Positions 3,277 through 7,839 of a stretch of DNA of 64,000 bases are shown here, piece by piece. The DNA lies in NCBI GenBank assembly GCA_036496805.1, contig DASXKN010000029.1:345451-409450 (forward strand), read 5' to 3'. The position numbers and the translations under genes were made by a program. The notes under the pieces are model-generated. The model saw only the letters and a program-made list of their open reading frames with translations. It was not told the origin of the DNA and searched no databases. Within the stretch, counting starts at the first letter, position 1. Each line of letters begins with the position of its first letter. This stretch comes from Lysobacteraceae bacterium. GTDB lineage: Bacteria > Pseudomonadota > Gammaproteobacteria > Xanthomonadales > Xanthomonadaceae.

Positions 3277-4053
3277 TCATCCTGCGCGGAACGCCCAATG
3301 CCAGGGCTCGTAGACGATGCCGTGCGGGTTGTCGCGCGGATAACTCATCGCGTAGCCGAAATCGCCTGCGCGCCGCGTCAGCCACGCGAACGCGGGCGTG
3401 AGTTCGAAGCTTTCCTCGGCCGGCGGCTCGCCTGGCGTGCCGATGTCGAGGGCGCGGCCCGAATGGTGCTCGCTGTAGCCGGGCGCGGCGTTGACGGTGA
3501 GGATCTGCTCGACGGTCAGGCCGCGGCGCAGCTTGCGTTCGAAGATGCCGAGCTGGTAGGCGTGGCCGCGGTAGCCGGAAATCGCGTCGAGCGCGATGCC
3601 GTCCGCGCGCGCCGCCTCGCGCATGCGTGTCCACGCGCGCGCAGCGGGCGCGAGCAGCCAGAGTGGGCGCCGGTAACGGTCGCGTCCGGCAAACAAAAGT
3701 CCGGTTGGCTCGGGCACCGGTTCCAGCCCGTGCGCGGCGCCGTAGTCGTCGGGAATGCCGAGGTCGGCGTAGGGCGGGGCGTGCTCGTCGAGCGCGACGG
3801 CGACGCCGGTTCCGTGCGCGATCGCATCAAGTGCGTCGCCGATGCCGGTGTCCGCATGCAGGGTCGAGCCGTCCAGCGAATGCACGAAGCCGCCGGCTAC
3901 TGCCGCGAGGAAGCGTCCGTCGGACTTGCGCCGCAGCAGCCAGTCCGATTGCGCGAGCCGGCGCGCGGTGGCGTTCGAGCGTGCCCGCGCCAGCCACGCG
4001 GGCAGTGCTTCGACGAGCCGGGTGTTCAGCAGCCGCTGTTCGCGTGATTGCAT
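3277..4053 (-). CDS. D-alanyl-D-alanine carboxypeptidase family (peptidase M15B/VanY-like)
   Basis: Zinc-site motif SEHHSGRALD followed by D/H residues typical of M15 peptidases. Confidence 0.75.
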   Translation of the reverse strand: MQSREQRLLNTRLVEALPAWLARARSNATARRLAQSDWLLRRKSDGRFLAAVAGGFVHSLDGSTLHADTGIGDALDAIAHGTGVAVALDEHAPPYADLGIPDDYGAAHGLEPVPEPTGLLFAGRDRYRRPLWLLAPAARAWTRMREAARADGIALDAISGYRGHAYQLGIFERKLRRGLTVEQILTVNAAPGYSEHHSGRALDIGTPGEPPAEESFELTPAFAWLTRRAGDFGYAMSYPRDNPHGIVYEPWHWAFRAG

Positions 4054-4182
4054 CGGTGCAGCTTAGCCGCGCGCGCAGCGGCCGTCACGGCGTCAGGCAG
4101 GGCGGAGAGGAGGGAGCGGGTTCCCGGGACCGCCATGTCCGCTGGCAGGATTAAGCGCATTGTCCGGCGCGACCCGGGCACG

Positions 4183-4389
4183 TCAGGAACCGCGCCGGGT
4201 CGTGGATGGAGGCCGCTCGGCGGGTACATCGTCTTCGGGTTTCTTAAGGCGTCCGTTTCTCCGCAGCGCATCGCGCAGCACGTACTCGATCTGCGCGTTG
4301 AGCGAACGCAGCTCGTCGTCCGACCAGCGCTGCATGGCCTGCAGCACGTCGGCGCCGATCCGCAGCGGATAGGCTTTTTTCTCGCTCAC
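4183..4389 (-). CDS. Arc/MetJ-type ribbon-helix-helix DNA-binding protein (alternative ATG start at 4431)
   Basis: Sequence VSEKKAYPLRIGADVLQAMQRWSDDELRSLNAQIEYVLRDAL matches the Arc-like RHH family. GTG at 4387-4389 lies 4 nt after the stop of the upstream peptide ORF. Confidence 0.7.
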   Translation of the reverse strand: MSEKKAYPLRIGADVLQAMQRWSDDELRSLNAQIEYVLRDALRRNGRLKKPEDDVPAERPPSTTRRGS

Positions 4390-4393
4390 GGGC

Positions 4394-4468
4394 TCAGCGA
4401 CGCATCCGTCGCGCCTGCGAGGCGCTGGCAACGGCTGCGATGGCGATGATGATGAATACGGCGGTCAT
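4394..4468 (-). CDS. 24-aa hydrophobic peptide MTAVFIIIAIAAVASASQARRMRR (single TM helix, basic C-terminus)
   Basis: Strong SD (AAGGAG) 7 nt upstream of the ATG at 4466-4468. Stop TGA at 4394-4396 is followed 4 nt later by the GTG of the Arc-like gene. Confidence 0.5.
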   Translation of the reverse strand: MTAVFIIIAIAAVASASQARRMRR

Positions 4469-4580
4469 GGTCTTGCTCCTTTTCAAGGTCGGCACATGGA
4501 TGTGCGGTCGCCACGTCCGGAGGCTCGAGGTCGCCCGGACTCCAGCGCACATCAGGGTTGAGGTGCGCTGGATGCGCACA

Positions 4581-5447
4581 TCAATAAATCGTCCCGGCAT
4601 TGACGATCGGCTGCGCCGGGCGTTCCGAGCAGAGCACCACGAGCATGTTGCTCACCATGGACGCGCGCCGCTCGTCGTCGAGTTCGGCCAGGCCTTTCTC
4701 CTTGAGCTGGTTGAGCGCCATCTCGACCATCGTGACCGCGCCGAACACGATCCGCGTGCGCGCCGCGACCACCGCATCGGCCTGCTGGCGCTGCAGCATC
4801 GCCTGGGCGATCTCCGGCGCGTAGGCGAGATGGCTGATGCGCGCCTCGATCATGGAAACACCGGCCTGGCTCAGGCGCTCCTTGAGCTGTTCCATGAGGT
4901 GTTGCGAGATCTCGATCGGATGGCTGCGCAGCGAGACGGTCTTCGGATCGTCGTGGTTGTCGTACGGGTAGCTGGTCGCCATCTGCCGCAGCGCCGATTC
5001 GGACTGGATGTGCACGTAGCTCTCGTAGTCGTCCACGTTGTAGACCGCCTCGGCGGAGTCGACGACCTGCCACACGATCACCGCGCCGATCTCGATCGGG
5101 CTGCCCTGCAATTCGTTGACCTTCAGCTTGCTGGTCTCGAAGTTGCGGATGCGCAGGCTGATCTTCTTCACCGCGTAGAACGGGTTGGTGAAGCGCAGGC
5201 CCTGTTCGCGTACCGAGCCGACGTACTTGCCGAACAGGCTGAGCACCACGGCCTGGTTCGGCTCGACGTTGAAGAAGCCGCCGAGGCAGACCATCAGCAG
5301 CATGCCGGCGAGGACTGCGCCTCCGCCAGTCAGGGTTTCGTTGGCCGCGGCGGCGCTGAGACCGATCCAGATGTCGCCGGCGAGCAGCGCGAACAGGACG
5401 ATCAGGGTGCGGATGCCGGACGTGGTGGTGGTCTCGCGCTCGTTCAT
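4581..5447 (-). CDS. SPFH/Band-7 (stomatin/prohibitin-like) membrane protein
   Basis: N-terminal TM helices followed by an SPFH domain ([42 protein letters not shown]). ATG at 5445-5447 with GGAGAA RBS. Confidence 0.8.
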
Positions 5448-5591
5448 GGTGCTTCTCCGTGGTGCGATACAGCCCGCGCGGGAACCGGCGGGGCACAGCG
5501 GATCGCTGCGCGAGGAACAAGATATCAAAAAGATATCATTTTGCAAGTGGGGGTGCGGCAATGAAGTTGCATCCCAATCGCGGCGGCCCAC

Positions 5592-6485
5592 TCACGGGCT
5601 TGCCGGGACATCGACCTCGACGATCGGGGCCGGCAAGTGTTCGCCGCTGACGTAGAACGCGCGCCCGTCGAGCCGGAACGTCAGTGCCTCGGCCTGCGGC
5701 AGCCAGCCGAACGGCAGCCACTGCGGCGAATGCGACACCGCCTGCGCCCAGCTCTCGCCCGCGCTTCGCCGGTAGAGATAGGCGCGGCGATAGGTCAGCA
5801 CCGCGATGCTGCCGCGATCGGGCGCGATGTCCGCGGCCGTGACCTGCGAGAGGTATTGCCTGAACTGCGGCAGCGTCCAGGTCTCGTCCAGCCGCGGCGA
5901 CGGTATGCCCACCAGCGGGCCGAGCCGTTTCGCCGTCAGCACGCCGCGCGCGGTCGGATGCAACGGCAGCCGGTACAGCACGGCAGGCACGGTGCGCTTG
6001 CTGATCAGCAGGATGCTGCCGGTCGCCACGTCCACCGTGACCGCCTCGCAGTCGCGCGGTCCGCCGGGCCAGCGGAAGCGGATGCTCCACGCCGGCGACG
6101 CGTGCGCATCGGCGATCGTCGCCGGCTCCTCGATCGCGTACAGCACCACGGTGTCGCGCACGGCGCGGTTGTCTCCCGCGTCGGCGAGCAGCAGGTAGTG
6201 ACGGCCGTGCTCGTCGAACGAGGCGAAGTCCTCCCAGTCGACGTTCGGCGCGCCGTCGACGTGCAGGGTCATCAGCAGCTTGCCGTCCGGTTTCACGAGA
6301 TAGACGTCGGGCGGGTTGTCGCTGTCGTTCTCCACCCACAGCAGGCCGGGATGGGCGTGCGAAGCCGCCAGGCCGCTGACCTCGGGCAACCTCGGGTCGT
6401 TCATCGTCCCGACCGTCCTCTGGCCGGCGAGGACGGCGGACATCGGCAGCGCGCACAGCACCACGACGATCAGTCGATGCAGCAT
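5592..6485 (-). CDS. secreted hypothetical protein (possible beta-propeller/esterase-like fold)
   Basis: Signal peptide [24 protein letters not shown] at 6483-6485. No confident family assignment. Confidence 0.5.
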
Positions 6486-6603
6486 GTTCGATCCTGTTCC
6501 CTGGTTCGCGCACGATGCCATGCCGGAGGTTACCGGCGAATGGGGCGGCGATGGCGACGCCGGGACCGGTAGAATGCCGCTTTCCCCACCGCCATCGCCT
6601 TCC

Positions 6604-7839
6604 ATGACCGTGATCGACAGTGCAGCCGCCGCCTCCCTTTCCAGCGCCGTCACCATCGGCACGCCACTGGCGAAGGGCGCGTTGCGCGTGCTCCTGCTGG
6701 GTTCGGGCGAGCTCGGCAAGGAAGTGGCGATCGAGCTGCAGCGCTTCGGCGTGGAGGTGATCGCCGCCGACCGCTACGAGCACGCGCCCGCGATGCAGGT
6801 CGCGCACCGCTCGCACACCCTCAACATGCTCGATCCGGCGGCACTGCGCGAGCTGATCGCGCGTGAGCAGCCGCACCTGGTGGTGCCGGAGATCGAGGCG
6901 ATCCATACCCCCACCCTGGTCGAACTCGAGCGCCTGCACGGCCAGCACGTGATCCCGACCGCGCGCGCGGCGCGGCTGACGATGGACCGCGAAGGCATCC
7001 GCCGGCTCGCGGCCGAAACCCTCGGCCTGCCCACATCGCCCTACCGCTTCGTCGACACCGTCGAGGAATACCGCGCTGCGGTCGAGGCCATCGGCATGCC
7101 CTGTGTGGTCAAGCCCGTCATGTCCAGCTCCGGCAAGGGCCAGAGCACGGTGCGTTCGACCACCGATGTCGACAAGGCCTGGGCGTACGCGCAGAGCGGC
7201 GGCCGCGCGGGGCAGGGGCGCGCGATCGTCGAGGGTTTCATCGACTTCGACTACGAGATCACCCTGCTCACCGTGCGCCATCGCGATGGCACCAGCTTCT
7301 GCGATCCGATCGGCCACCTGCAGCTCGATGGCGACTATCGCGAGAGCTGGCAGCCGCAGCCCATGAGTCCCGCAGCGCTGGAGCGCGCGAAGGCGATCGC
7401 GTCGGCGGTGACCGACAACCTCGGCGGGTACGGCCTGTTCGGCGTCGAGCTGTTCGTGAAAGGCGACGAGGTGTGGTTCTCGGAGGTCTCGCCGCGGCCG
7501 CACGACACCGGCCTGGTCACGCTGATGTCGCAGGATCTTTCCGAGTTCGCGCTGCACGCGCGCGCGATCCTCGGCCTGCCGATCCCGAACATCGAGCAGC
7601 GCGGGCCTTCGGCTTCATGCGCGGTGCTCGCGCACGGCAACGGCGTGCCGCGGTTCGGCAACGTCGATGCGGCGCTGGCTCAGCCCGACACCGCGCTGCG
7701 CCTGTTCGGCAAGCCGCGGGTCGAGGGCCATCGCCGCGTCGCGGTCATGCTCGCGCGCGGCGAGTCGATCGATCACGCACGCGCGAAGGCGCGCGATGCG
7801 GCGGCCGCGTTGCGCGTCGAACTCGTAACCGAGTCCTGA
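6604..7839 (+). CDS. purT: phosphoribosylglycinamide formyltransferase 2 (formate-dependent GAR transformylase)
   Basis: Near full-length similarity to E. coli PurT ([17 protein letters not shown]...[12 protein letters not shown]...SPRPHDTG). Start is ATG at 6604; an alternative ATG at 6574 is possible. Confidence 0.9.

What the first reader, a model, noticed from the sequence alone, without database searches (positions are those of the whole stretch)
4183..4468. 24-aa hydrophobic peptide ORF with strong SD, coupled 4 nt upstream of an Arc/RHH regulator
MTAVFIIIAIAAVASASQARRMRR (one TM helix with a basic tail) has an AAGGAG SD at optimal spacing. Its TGA is followed after 4 nt by the GTG start of an Arc-type RHH DNA-binding protein. 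It resembles small membrane toxins (Hok/Ldr/TisB/Fst-like peptides). The arrangement suggests a peptide-regulator module (a toxin-like peptide with its transcriptional repressor, or a leader peptide); I know no described family matching it.
Basis: partly seen in the sequence, partly recalled or inferred. Interest (0 to 1): 0.65.

Follow-up and report, generated by a model that had tools for sequence, protein, structure and literature searches.

The report
Unannotated small membrane peptide in SPFH operon
The 24-codon ORF looks like a real but unannotated gene for a tiny one-helix membrane protein, yet it is an optional extra cistron in a conserved operon of an SPFH (stomatin-like) membrane protein and an Arc-like repressor, not a toxin with its own repressor.

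Summary
On the minus strand, a 24-codon ORF (4468..4394, MTAVFIIIAIAAVASASQARRMRR) follows an AAGGAG 7 nt upstream. Its TGA lies 4 nt before the GTG of a 68-aa Arc-like ribbon-helix-helix (RHH) protein (4389..4183).

Comparison with 164 related loci changes the interpretation. The RHH gene always follows an SPFH/Band-7 gene. A tandem motif, TGATATC-N4-TGATATC, overlaps a promoter-like site upstream of the SPFH gene in all 133 loci that reach that far. So the RHH is most likely the autorepressor of an SPFH operon, not the peptide's dedicated partner.

The slot between the two genes varies:
- Empty: 78 loci.
- An uncharacterised multi-TM protein, mostly about 94 aa: 44 loci.
- A 22-29-aa one-helix peptide with an Arg-rich tail: 17 loci including the window, plus one frameshifted allele.

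These peptides show coding signatures (GC3 0.79-0.96, synonymous-only changes in the MTAVFI codons, no A at codon position 2 in 241 core codons). None is in a 15-billion-protein collection.

Best reading: a genuine small inner-membrane protein, translationally coupled to the RHH and probably acting with the SPFH assembly. The toxin-repressor reading is poorly supported. This is a new small-protein family of an ordinary kind; interest is moderate.

The parts
5541..5546 (-). -35-like hexamer TTGCAA of the putative operon promoter
   Evidence: Read from the sequence. A TTG lies 8 nt upstream of the first repeat in the consensus of 133 loci. The simple promoter scan did not call a promoter here, so the assignment is inferred.
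5521..5538 (-). Tandem motif TGATATC-TTTT-TGATATC (11-bp period, each GATATC palindromic). It is the candidate operator of the RHH protein. The second copy with the next TT reads TGaTATCTT, an extended -10-like element 16 nt after the -35.
   Evidence: Unique in the 64-kb window. An exact copy occurs at the same place in 112 of the 160 loci held at that point. It is present with at most 2 mismatches in all 133 sequences (window included) that extend upstream of the SPFH gene. Binding by the RHH is inferred, not shown.
4581..5447 (-). SPFH / Band-7 membrane protein gene (288 aa, hydrophobic N-terminus), first cistron
   Evidence: Pfam Band_7 E 3e-24. Deposited as 'SPFH domain-containing protein'. 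tblastn found an SPFH gene in 156 of 160 loci; the remaining contigs are too short.
4469..4580 (-). 112-nt structured spacer between the SPFH stop and the peptide start, including the palindrome GCACATCCATGTGC at 4492-4505
   Evidence: RNA fold of 4460-4590: -51.3 kcal/mol, z = -3.76. No Rfam match. No terminator-like site on this strand. Largely absent from the close relative L162, so it looks like an insertion.
4476..4481 (-). Shine-Dalgarno AAGGAG, 7 nt before the peptide ATG
   Evidence: Sequence. The relatives with long spacers also have their own SD: L001 AAGGAGA, L012 AAGGAAA, L162 GGAGG.
4394..4468 (-). 24-aa small membrane protein gene (MTAVFIIIAIAAVASASQARRMRR; one TM helix plus basic tail), optional middle cistron
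   Evidence: Seventeen loci including the window carry a 22-29-aa TM plus Arg-tail ORF in the same slot. GC3 is 0.79-0.96. The MTAVFI codons differ only at third positions. Codon position 2 shows 0 A in 241 core codons; under simulated neutral drift of 40-50% per site the features survive in at most 0.3% of runs. Translation itself is not shown.
4183..4389 (-). Arc-like ribbon-helix-helix protein gene (68 aa, GTG start, acidic/Pro-rich tail), last cistron, 4 nt after the peptide stop
   Evidence: 5742 homologues. The start is fixed by alignment A1. The family profile hits P22 Arc. 28 of 30 members hit Pfam Arc and 23 hit RHH_5. The window protein alone is sub-threshold (E 0.036).

Best explanation
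The 24-codon ORF is a genuine gene for a small inner-membrane protein. It has one TM helix and an Arg-rich tail that, by the positive-inside rule, should face the cytoplasm.

It is the optional middle cistron of a three-gene chromosomal operon: SPFH/Band-7 protein, small membrane protein, Arc-like RHH protein.

The operon appears to be transcribed from a promoter whose spacer and extended -10 carry two palindromic TGATATC sites 11 bp apart. The RHH protein most likely binds there as a dimer of dimers and represses its own operon.

The RHH cistron has a GTG start and no SD of its own in the window. It is probably translated by ribosomes terminating 4 nt upstream on the peptide ORF, so the peptide's strong SD also sets RHH output.

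The peptide itself, like the roughly 94-aa multi-TM protein in the same slot in Xanthomonas and Lysobacter, most likely acts in the membrane with the SPFH assembly as an accessory subunit or client. It is not a toxin.

Shown: gene order, spacing, conservation, coding signatures, the conserved motif, and Arc-family homology. Inferred: translation of the peptide, RHH binding to the motif, translational coupling, and any interaction with SPFH.
For: 1. The peptide is probably a real gene.
- The same slot holds a 22-29-aa ORF with about 16 hydrophobic residues followed by RRRR in 17 loci (the window, 15 of the 160 scanned loci, and L162). Its stop lies 1-9 nt before the RHH start.
- In-frame GC3 is 0.79-0.96.
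- WIN, L001 and L162 share MTAVFI with third-position differences only.
- dN/dS is 0.26-0.5 within subfamilies.
- Codon position 2 has 0 A in 241 core codons. Simulated neutral drift of 40-50% per site keeps the open frame, TM stretch and basic tail in at most 0.3% of runs.
- It is the only such ORF in the window.

2. The unit is an operon centred on SPFH and the RHH.
- The two genes are adjacent in all 160 scanned loci, from Lysobacterales and a few Alphaproteobacteria.
- The peptide start lies 8-17 nt after the SPFH stop in 13 of the 16 peptide loci analysed.

3. The motif looks like an operator.
- TGATATC-N4-TGATATC is present in all 133 loci that reach upstream of the SPFH gene, 104 of them exactly.
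- It is unique in the window.
- It lies between a TTG(C/A)A -35 and overlaps TGaTATCTT.

4. The RHH belongs to the Arc family.
- The profile hits Arc over residues 5-51.
- 28 of 30 members hit Pfam Arc, best E 1.5e-5.

5. Coupling is plausible.
- Only 2 of 16 RHH genes in peptide-bearing loci have an SD of at least 4 nt, against 8 of 18 in loci with long ORF-free gaps.

6. The slot holds membrane proteins of variable size, with roughly 3, 2 or 1 hydrophobic segments, or nothing.
Against: - There is no direct evidence of translation. None of ten peptide sequences tested is annotated anywhere.
- The peptide is dispensable. 78 loci have nothing in the slot, and one lineage (L100/L150) carries a frameshifted copy.
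- Ascertainment bias: peptide-bearing loci were recognised by being hydrophobic ORFs. The 18 loci with long ORF-free gaps may be decayed versions.
- Between subfamilies dN/dS is about 1, so only composition is constrained.
- There is no detectable homology between the peptides and the multi-TM slot protein (hhalign probability 1%), so 'same slot, same role' is an assumption.
- The simple promoter scan did not call the proposed promoter.
- The AF2 monomer of the RHH came out as one long helix with no PDB fold match, so the fold test is inconclusive.
- Nothing here tests an interaction with SPFH.
Confidence: 0.5

Rival explanations
1. The ORF is only a coupling device or a decaying remnant. It is translated so that ribosomes are delivered to the SD-less GTG start of the RHH gene, or it is left over from a larger slot gene. 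The peptide product has no function of its own.
For: - The stop-to-start distance is 1-9 nt in all peptide-bearing loci, and the RHH rarely has its own SD there (2 of 16).
- The slot is empty in 78 loci, where the RHH start abuts the SPFH stop instead.
- A frameshifted allele exists.
- Primary sequence is barely conserved between subfamilies.
- Slot types are interleaved on the SPFH+RHH tree, implying repeated loss or reduction.
Against: - A pure coupling ORF need not keep any particular amino-acid character. Yet all 17 copies keep a TM-length hydrophobic core (0 A at codon position 2 in 241 codons) and an Arg cluster.
- Simulated neutral drift loses those features in more than 99% of runs at the observed level of divergence.
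- MTAVFI is kept through synonymous changes.
- There is no detectable homology to the multi-TM slot protein, whose third TM carries an invariant Asn that the peptides lack.
Confidence: 0.22
2. The peptide is a Hok/TisB/Fst-like membrane-depolarising toxin, and the adjacent RHH protein is its dedicated transcriptional repressor or antitoxin.
For: - Size, a single hydrophobic helix and a charged tail resemble type I toxins.
- RHH proteins are common antitoxins. One homologue is named 'type II toxin-antitoxin system antitoxin' by NCBI, and 17 of 30 members hit ParD_like weakly.
Against: - The RHH and its putative operator are present whether or not the peptide is.
- The peptide is an internal cistron, usually 8-17 nt behind the SPFH gene, with no promoter of its own.
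- The locus is a syntenic core chromosomal region between purT and a VanY-like gene, not a mobile or defence island, and has no PADLOC hits.
- No member hits a known toxin family. The only hits are compositional ones to TM-plus-Arg C-terminal anchor models.
- No Rfam antisense RNA was found.
Confidence: 0.06
3. The ORF is a chance ORF in a GC-rich intergenic spacer and is never translated. The real unit is just SPFH and the RHH.
For: - Open frames are common in 65-70% GC DNA. Another frame of the same spacer is also open.
- No gene caller or database lists the peptide.
- Half of the relatives lack it.
Against: - Features recur in 17 diverged loci, each with a start codon, an SD or tight coupling, and a stop abutting the RHH start.
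- GC3 is 0.79-0.96, and codon position 2 is strongly biased.
- The Markov background is 0.01 such ORFs per 64 kb.
Confidence: 0.1

Closest known systems
P22 Arc / Mnt-type ribbon-helix-helix repressors (Pfam Arc PF03869, RHH clan)
   Same: - Small size.
- The profile aligns from the N-terminal beta-strand through both helices of Arc.
- Most family members pass as Arc or RHH_5.
- The candidate operator is two palindromic sites one helical turn apart, inside the promoter. From general knowledge, this is the arrangement Arc uses at Pant.
   Different: - It is chromosomal and always follows an SPFH gene, as the last rather than the first cistron.
- It has an acidic, Pro-rich C-terminal tail.
- The window protein alone is below Pfam's cutoff (E 0.036).
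- DNA binding is untested.
SPFH-NfeD operons (E. coli QmcA-YbbJ and YqiK-YqiJ; Pyrococcus PH1511-PH1510), as reviewed in PMC2636767
   Same: An SPFH gene is co-transcribed and tightly coupled with a small membrane protein gene. The partner gene is lost in some lineages.
   Different: - The partner here has no NfeD domain: no Pfam hit for the peptide or for the 94-aa slot protein.
- The partner lies downstream of the SPFH gene.
- The operon carries an RHH gene.
- PMC2636767 reports no NfeD partner for subfamilies SPFH3, 4 and 6-12. I did not assign this SPFH protein to a subfamily.
Operon-encoded small hydrophobic subunits and modulators (KdpF, CydX, AcrZ, MgtR); comparison from general knowledge
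   Same: - Fewer than 50 aa with a single TM helix.
- Encoded inside the operon of a larger membrane machine.
- Weak primary-sequence conservation.
- Routinely missed by annotation.
   Different: There is no sequence relationship, and the partner and function are untested. The peptide is also dispensable in many relatives.
Type I membrane toxins (Hok, Ldr, TisB, Fst, Ibs, ShoB)
   Same: A short hydrophobic helix with charged residues at one end.
   Different: - No family hit.
- No antisense RNA detected.
- It is an internal operon cistron.
- The neighbouring regulator is conserved independently of it.
C-terminal TM-plus-Arg sorting/anchor domains (NCBIfam GG_III-CTERM, GPS-CTERM, MYXO-CTERM)
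   Same: Nine of 16 peptides hit GG_III-CTERM (best E 1e-4). The architecture is the same: a TM helix followed by an Arg cluster.
   Different: Those are C-terminal tails of large secreted proteins. Here the segment is a free-standing ORF with its own start codon. The match is compositional.

Membership tests
Arc / ribbon-helix-helix DNA-binding superfamily (the 68-aa protein) | Significant sequence match to an RHH family model | tested here: met
   The window protein alone is sub-threshold (Pfam Arc E 0.036, 14.4 bits against a cutoff of 20.4). At family level, 28 of 30 homologues hit Arc (best E 1.5e-5) and 23 hit RHH_5. The family profile hits P22 Arc chains at E 0.003-0.013, and single-chain Arc at 1.3e-6.
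Arc / ribbon-helix-helix DNA-binding superfamily (the 68-aa protein) | Beta-strand, helix, turn, helix fold forming an intertwined dimer | tested here: inconclusive
   The AF2 monomer (pLDDT 79.5) gave one continuous helix over residues 13-44 and no strand. Foldseek against the PDB gave no match. RHH proteins are obligate dimers, so a monomer model is a poor test. A dimer prediction was not possible with these tools.
Arc / ribbon-helix-helix DNA-binding superfamily (the 68-aa protein) | Binds repeated operator sites, usually in its own promoter | not testable with these tools
   A conserved candidate site exists in all 133 loci that reach it. Binding needs EMSA or footprinting.
Type I membrane toxins (Hok/Ldr/TisB/Fst/Ibs) (the peptide) | Sequence match to a toxin family model | tested here: not met
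   No toxin family at E <= 0.05 for any of 16 peptides in Pfam or NCBIfam, or at E <= 0.1 for the window peptide.
Type I membrane toxins (Hok/Ldr/TisB/Fst/Ibs) (the peptide) | Stand-alone locus with an antisense or overlapping regulatory RNA | tested here: not met
   The peptide is an internal cistron between the SPFH and RHH genes. No Rfam family matched in 3900-5800, and no promoter-like site was found on either strand. An undescribed antisense RNA cannot be excluded.
Type I membrane toxins (Hok/Ldr/TisB/Fst/Ibs) (the peptide) | Toxic or membrane-depolarising when expressed | not testable with these tools
   Needs induced expression and membrane-potential assays.
Type II toxin-antitoxin pair with an RHH antitoxin | Antitoxin and toxin genes co-occur as a pair | tested here: not met
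   The RHH occurs without the peptide in most loci: 78 with nothing in the slot and 44 with a different membrane protein. Its invariant neighbour is the SPFH gene.
SPFH-NfeD operon | Partner protein carries an NfeD domain (OB-fold C-terminal domain after the TM helices) | tested here: not met
   No NfeD hit for the peptide or for seven slot proteins. The peptide is too short to contain the domain.
SPFH / Band-7 family (the upstream gene) | Pfam Band_7 domain above the gathering score | tested here: met
   PF01145, E 3.2e-24, 86.4 bits against a cutoff of 23.6. No solved structure is close by sequence.
Operon-encoded small membrane protein (KdpF/CydX-like kind) | Fewer than 50 aa, one predicted TM helix, encoded within an operon for a membrane protein, conserved as a coding sequence | tested here: met
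   The peptides are 22-29 aa with a maximum Kyte-Doolittle score (15-residue window) of about 2.5-3.5, sit in the operon, and show coding signatures. Physical association with the SPFH protein is untested.

The most novel reading that the evidence does not exclude
The slot proteins (the 1-TM peptide here, the multi-TM protein in Xanthomonas and Lysobacter) are the dedicated membrane partners of an NfeD-less SPFH cage. Their cytoplasmic poly-Arg tails would capture the acidic tail of the Arc-like repressor at the membrane. Operon transcription would then report the state of the SPFH/membrane assembly. That would be a membrane-sequestration feedback circuit not described for any SPFH system.
Probability: 0.07. 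Interest if true: 0.75.

Novelty: new variant of a known kind. Interest (0 to 1): 0.4.

Why it matters
Bacterial SPFH proteins are widespread, but apart from HflK/C most have no known partner or function. The described operon partners are NfeD proteins.

This locus defines a different, conserved SPFH operon in Lysobacterales and some Alphaproteobacteria. It has a dedicated Arc-like regulator, a clear candidate operator, and a slot for a variable small membrane protein.

That yields three concrete, testable handles: a repressor, a DNA site and a candidate partner, all in culturable Lysobacter, Xanthomonas and Stenotrophomonas.

It also adds an unannotated small-protein family. In at least one relative, gene callers wrongly extend the RHH start across it.

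Tried and rejected
- Known peptide families: Pfam and NCBIfam scans of the window peptide and of all 16 peptides gave only compositional hits to TM-plus-Arg anchor models.
- Exact-sequence look-up of ten peptides in about 15 billion proteins found none.
- Anti-phage defence: PADLOC gave no hits for the RHH, SPFH, VanY-like protein or an upstream ORF.
- Peptide as the last helix of the multi-TM slot protein: hhalign probability was 1%, and the invariant Asn of that helix is absent from the peptides. Neither supported nor excluded, because the sequences are short and low in complexity.
- Slot protein as DUF3784- or NfeD-like: no significant Pfam hit.
- Structured spacer as a known RNA or a terminator: no Rfam match and no terminator-like site on that strand.
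- AF2 monomer of the RHH and Foldseek against the PDB: uninformative.
- Pairwise dN/dS across subfamilies: saturated, about 1, and not informative. Only within-subfamily pairs were usable.
- Literature: four full-text searches found no paper describing an SPFH operon with an RHH/Arc gene or a small membrane protein of this kind.

Full report
**What is in the sequence.** All genes discussed lie on the minus strand.
- An SPFH/Band-7 gene runs 5447..4581 (Pfam Band_7, E 3e-24).
- A 112-nt spacer follows.
- AAGGAG sits at 4481..4476, 7 nt before an ATG at 4468.
- That ATG opens the 24-codon ORF MTAVFIIIAIAAVASASQARRMRR, ending in TGA at 4396..4394.
- Four nucleotides later, GTG at 4389 opens a 68-aa ORF ending at 4183.

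The alternative start at 4431 is TTG, not ATG. It is not used either. Thirty homologues all begin M/V-x-E-K-K-A-Y-P-L-R-I, and the deposited protein (100% identical, from a Xanthomonadaceae MAG) is also 68 aa.

In the whole window, this is the only ATG-ORF of 20-40 aa with a TM-grade hydrophobic stretch and a basic tail. Markov random sequences gave 0.01 per 64 kb.

**The downstream protein.**
- On its own it matches Pfam Arc only weakly (E 0.036, below the cutoff).
- It has 5742 homologues, many named 'Arc family DNA-binding protein'.
- 28 of 30 aligned members hit Pfam Arc (best E 1.5e-5) and 23 hit RHH_5.
- The family profile aligns to P22 Arc from the beta-strand through helix B (E 0.003-0.013).
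- An AF2 monomer gave a single long helix with no PDB fold match. I regard this as uninformative for an obligate dimer.

Membership of the Arc/RHH superfamily is therefore supported by sequence and not confirmed by structure.

**What the RHH is linked to.**
- I fetched 80 loci from reference genomes and 80 from metagenomes that encode relatives of the RHH, and four more through two close homologues.
- In every locus where the contig is long enough, the RHH gene directly follows an SPFH gene. tblastn found SPFH in 156 of 160.
- The neighbourhood is a syntenic chromosomal region. It has a divergent purT, a conserved ORF without a Pfam hit upstream, and a VanY-like gene downstream.
- There are no PADLOC hits.

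Upstream of the SPFH start, every locus that reaches that far (133 of 133) carries TGATATC-N4-TGATATC with at most 2 mismatches; 104 are exact.
- In the window it lies at 5538..5521 and is unique in 64 kb.
- The consensus is cTTGcaAa.TGATATCAaTTTGATATCTTT.
- A -35-like TTGCAA (5546..5541) is followed after 16 nt by TATCTT, with TG two bases upstream. The second repeat therefore doubles as an extended -10, and the first repeat lies in the spacer.

Two palindromic sites one helical turn apart inside a promoter are what an Arc-type dimer of dimers would bind. The RHH is the only DNA-binding protein in the conserved unit. I therefore infer that it autorepresses this operon. That inference is untested.

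**What sits between the SPFH and RHH genes.** The slot is variable.
- In 78 loci the RHH start lies within 60 nt of the SPFH stop, and in 42 of these within 12 nt.
- In 44 loci there is a longer ORF.
  - Most belong to a membrane-protein family of about 90-123 aa with three hydrophobic segments. It has an invariant Asn and a conserved WAG.D motif, and it usually overlaps the RHH start as ATGA or GTGA.
  - In Xanthomonas this protein is annotated 'hypothetical' or 'membrane protein'. It has no Pfam family.
  - A few ORFs are shorter, 69-74 aa.
- In 16 sequences (the window and 15 scanned loci), plus L162 found through a close homologue, the slot holds a 22-29-aa ORF. It has the pattern M-x-T, then about 16 I/V/A/L residues, then A-A-R-R-R-R. 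Its stop lies 1-9 nt before the RHH start.
- Eighteen loci have 61-115-nt gaps without such an ORF. Two of them (L100 and L150, identical sequence from two samples) contain a frameshifted copy of the peptide.
- The slot types are interleaved on an SPFH+RHH neighbour-joining tree, so the slot gene has been gained, shrunk or lost repeatedly.

**Is the peptide a real gene?** Evidence for:
- In-frame GC3 is 0.79-0.96, against GC2 of about 0.5.
- The three MTAVFI peptides (window, L001, L162) differ in those codons only at third positions: GCC/GCA/GCT, GTA/GTC/GTT, TTC/TTC/TTT.
- Within subfamilies dN/dS is 0.26-0.5.
- Across 241 core codons, position 2 is T in 142, C in 76, G in 23 and A in none.
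- A neutral-drift simulation from the window sequence keeps an open frame, a TM stretch and a basic tail in only 0.06-0.3% of runs at 40-50% change per site.
- Each copy either has its own SD (AAGGAG, AAGGAGA, AAGGAAA or GGAGG where the spacer is long) or starts 8-17 nt after the SPFH stop.

Evidence against, or limiting:
- There are no expression data.
- None of ten peptides tested is in a 15-billion-protein collection.
- Between subfamilies only composition is conserved.
- Loci were recognised as peptide-bearing because they are hydrophobic ORFs, and the ORF-free gaps may be decayed copies.

I put the probability that it is translated and under selection at about 0.8.

**What it does.** The toxin-with-repressor idea fits poorly.
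- The RHH and its candidate operator are there with or without the peptide.
- The peptide is an internal cistron of a core chromosomal operon.
- A frameshifted allele sits next to intact SPFH and RHH genes.
- No toxin family or antisense RNA was found.

The 'leader' idea is partly right.
- In the window, the RHH has a GTG start and no SD, 4 nt after the peptide stop.
- Across peptide-bearing loci, only 2 of 16 RHH genes have an SD of at least 4 nt, against 8 of 18 in ORF-free long gaps. This is suggestive but the numbers are small.

Coupling alone does not explain why a TM helix and an Arg cluster are kept. The most economical reading is a small inner-membrane protein. Its tail should be cytoplasmic by the positive-inside rule. 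It would work with the SPFH assembly and also pass ribosomes to the RHH cistron.

This resembles operon-encoded small subunits such as KdpF or CydX (from general knowledge). It also loosely resembles the SPFH-NfeD pairing reviewed in PMC2636767, but no NfeD domain is present. An SPFH-peptide interaction is pure inference.

**Novelty and score.**
- I found no paper describing an SPFH operon with an RHH gene or with such a peptide.
- A 2026 survey of Pseudomonas aeruginosa SPFH genes mentions NfeD partners only.
- The peptide family is new and unannotated. In L162 the gene caller instead extended the RHH N-terminus across it.
- The kind of thing, a small hydrophobic operon-encoded protein beside an autoregulatory RHH, is familiar.

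I rate it a new variant of a known kind, with interest 0.4. The more useful result is the operon model: SPFH, a variable membrane slot protein, an Arc-like repressor, and a near-invariant tandem operator.

Noticed in passing
window 4469-4580 (minus strand); palindrome GCACATCCATGTGC at 4492-4505: The spacer between the SPFH stop and the peptide folds into a stable multi-branch structure (-51.3 kcal/mol, z = -3.76). It has no Rfam match and no U-tract. The close relative L162 lacks most of it, so it looks like an inserted palindromic element. L081, which has no peptide, carries a similar CCGCACATCCATGTGCGG just before its RHH gene.
   Followed up: partly
L002, L006, L013 and others, between the SPFH stop and the RHH start (e.g. 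L006 about 2220-2504): A conserved family of roughly 94-123-aa membrane proteins with three hydrophobic segments occupies the same slot in Xanthomonas, Lysobacter and some Stenotrophomonas. It has an invariant Asn in the last helix, a WAG.D motif and an Arg-rich end overlapping the RHH start. It is annotated only as 'hypothetical' or 'membrane protein' and has no Pfam family.
   Followed up: partly
L100 and L150, gap between SPFH and RHH (L100 about 1905-2000): Two metagenome contigs from different samples carry the same frameshifted copy of the peptide (MHTTLGAIAVVIT, frameshift, then VIAIAARRRRGG*) next to intact SPFH and RHH genes. This suggests pseudogenisation in that lineage, though an assembly error is not excluded.
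   Followed up: partly
L162 1489-1704 (protein P0023): The public gene call for this RHH homologue starts upstream, giving an N-terminal extension MAGEPRADRV. The extension overlaps the 23-codon peptide ORF (1451-1522) in another frame. This shows how annotation hides the peptide.
   Followed up: yes
window 5592-6719 (minus strand, maximal ORF): A conserved ORF with no Pfam hit lies just upstream of the operon promoter, on the same strand. About 45 related loci have it at 46-52% identity. The overlapping plus-strand ORF 5637-6572 scores lower and is probably spurious. The function is unknown.
   Followed up: no
window 4200-5550 compared with its flanks: The SPFH-peptide-RHH stretch has lower GC (0.60-0.69) than the flanking genes (0.70-0.75) in 150-nt windows.
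   Followed up: no
L161 1700-2015: In one relative, two further small ORFs (42 aa, and 57 aa with a weak DUF4177 hit) and an Rce1-like protease gene lie between the RHH and the VanY-like gene. The region downstream of the RHH is also variable.
   Followed up: no
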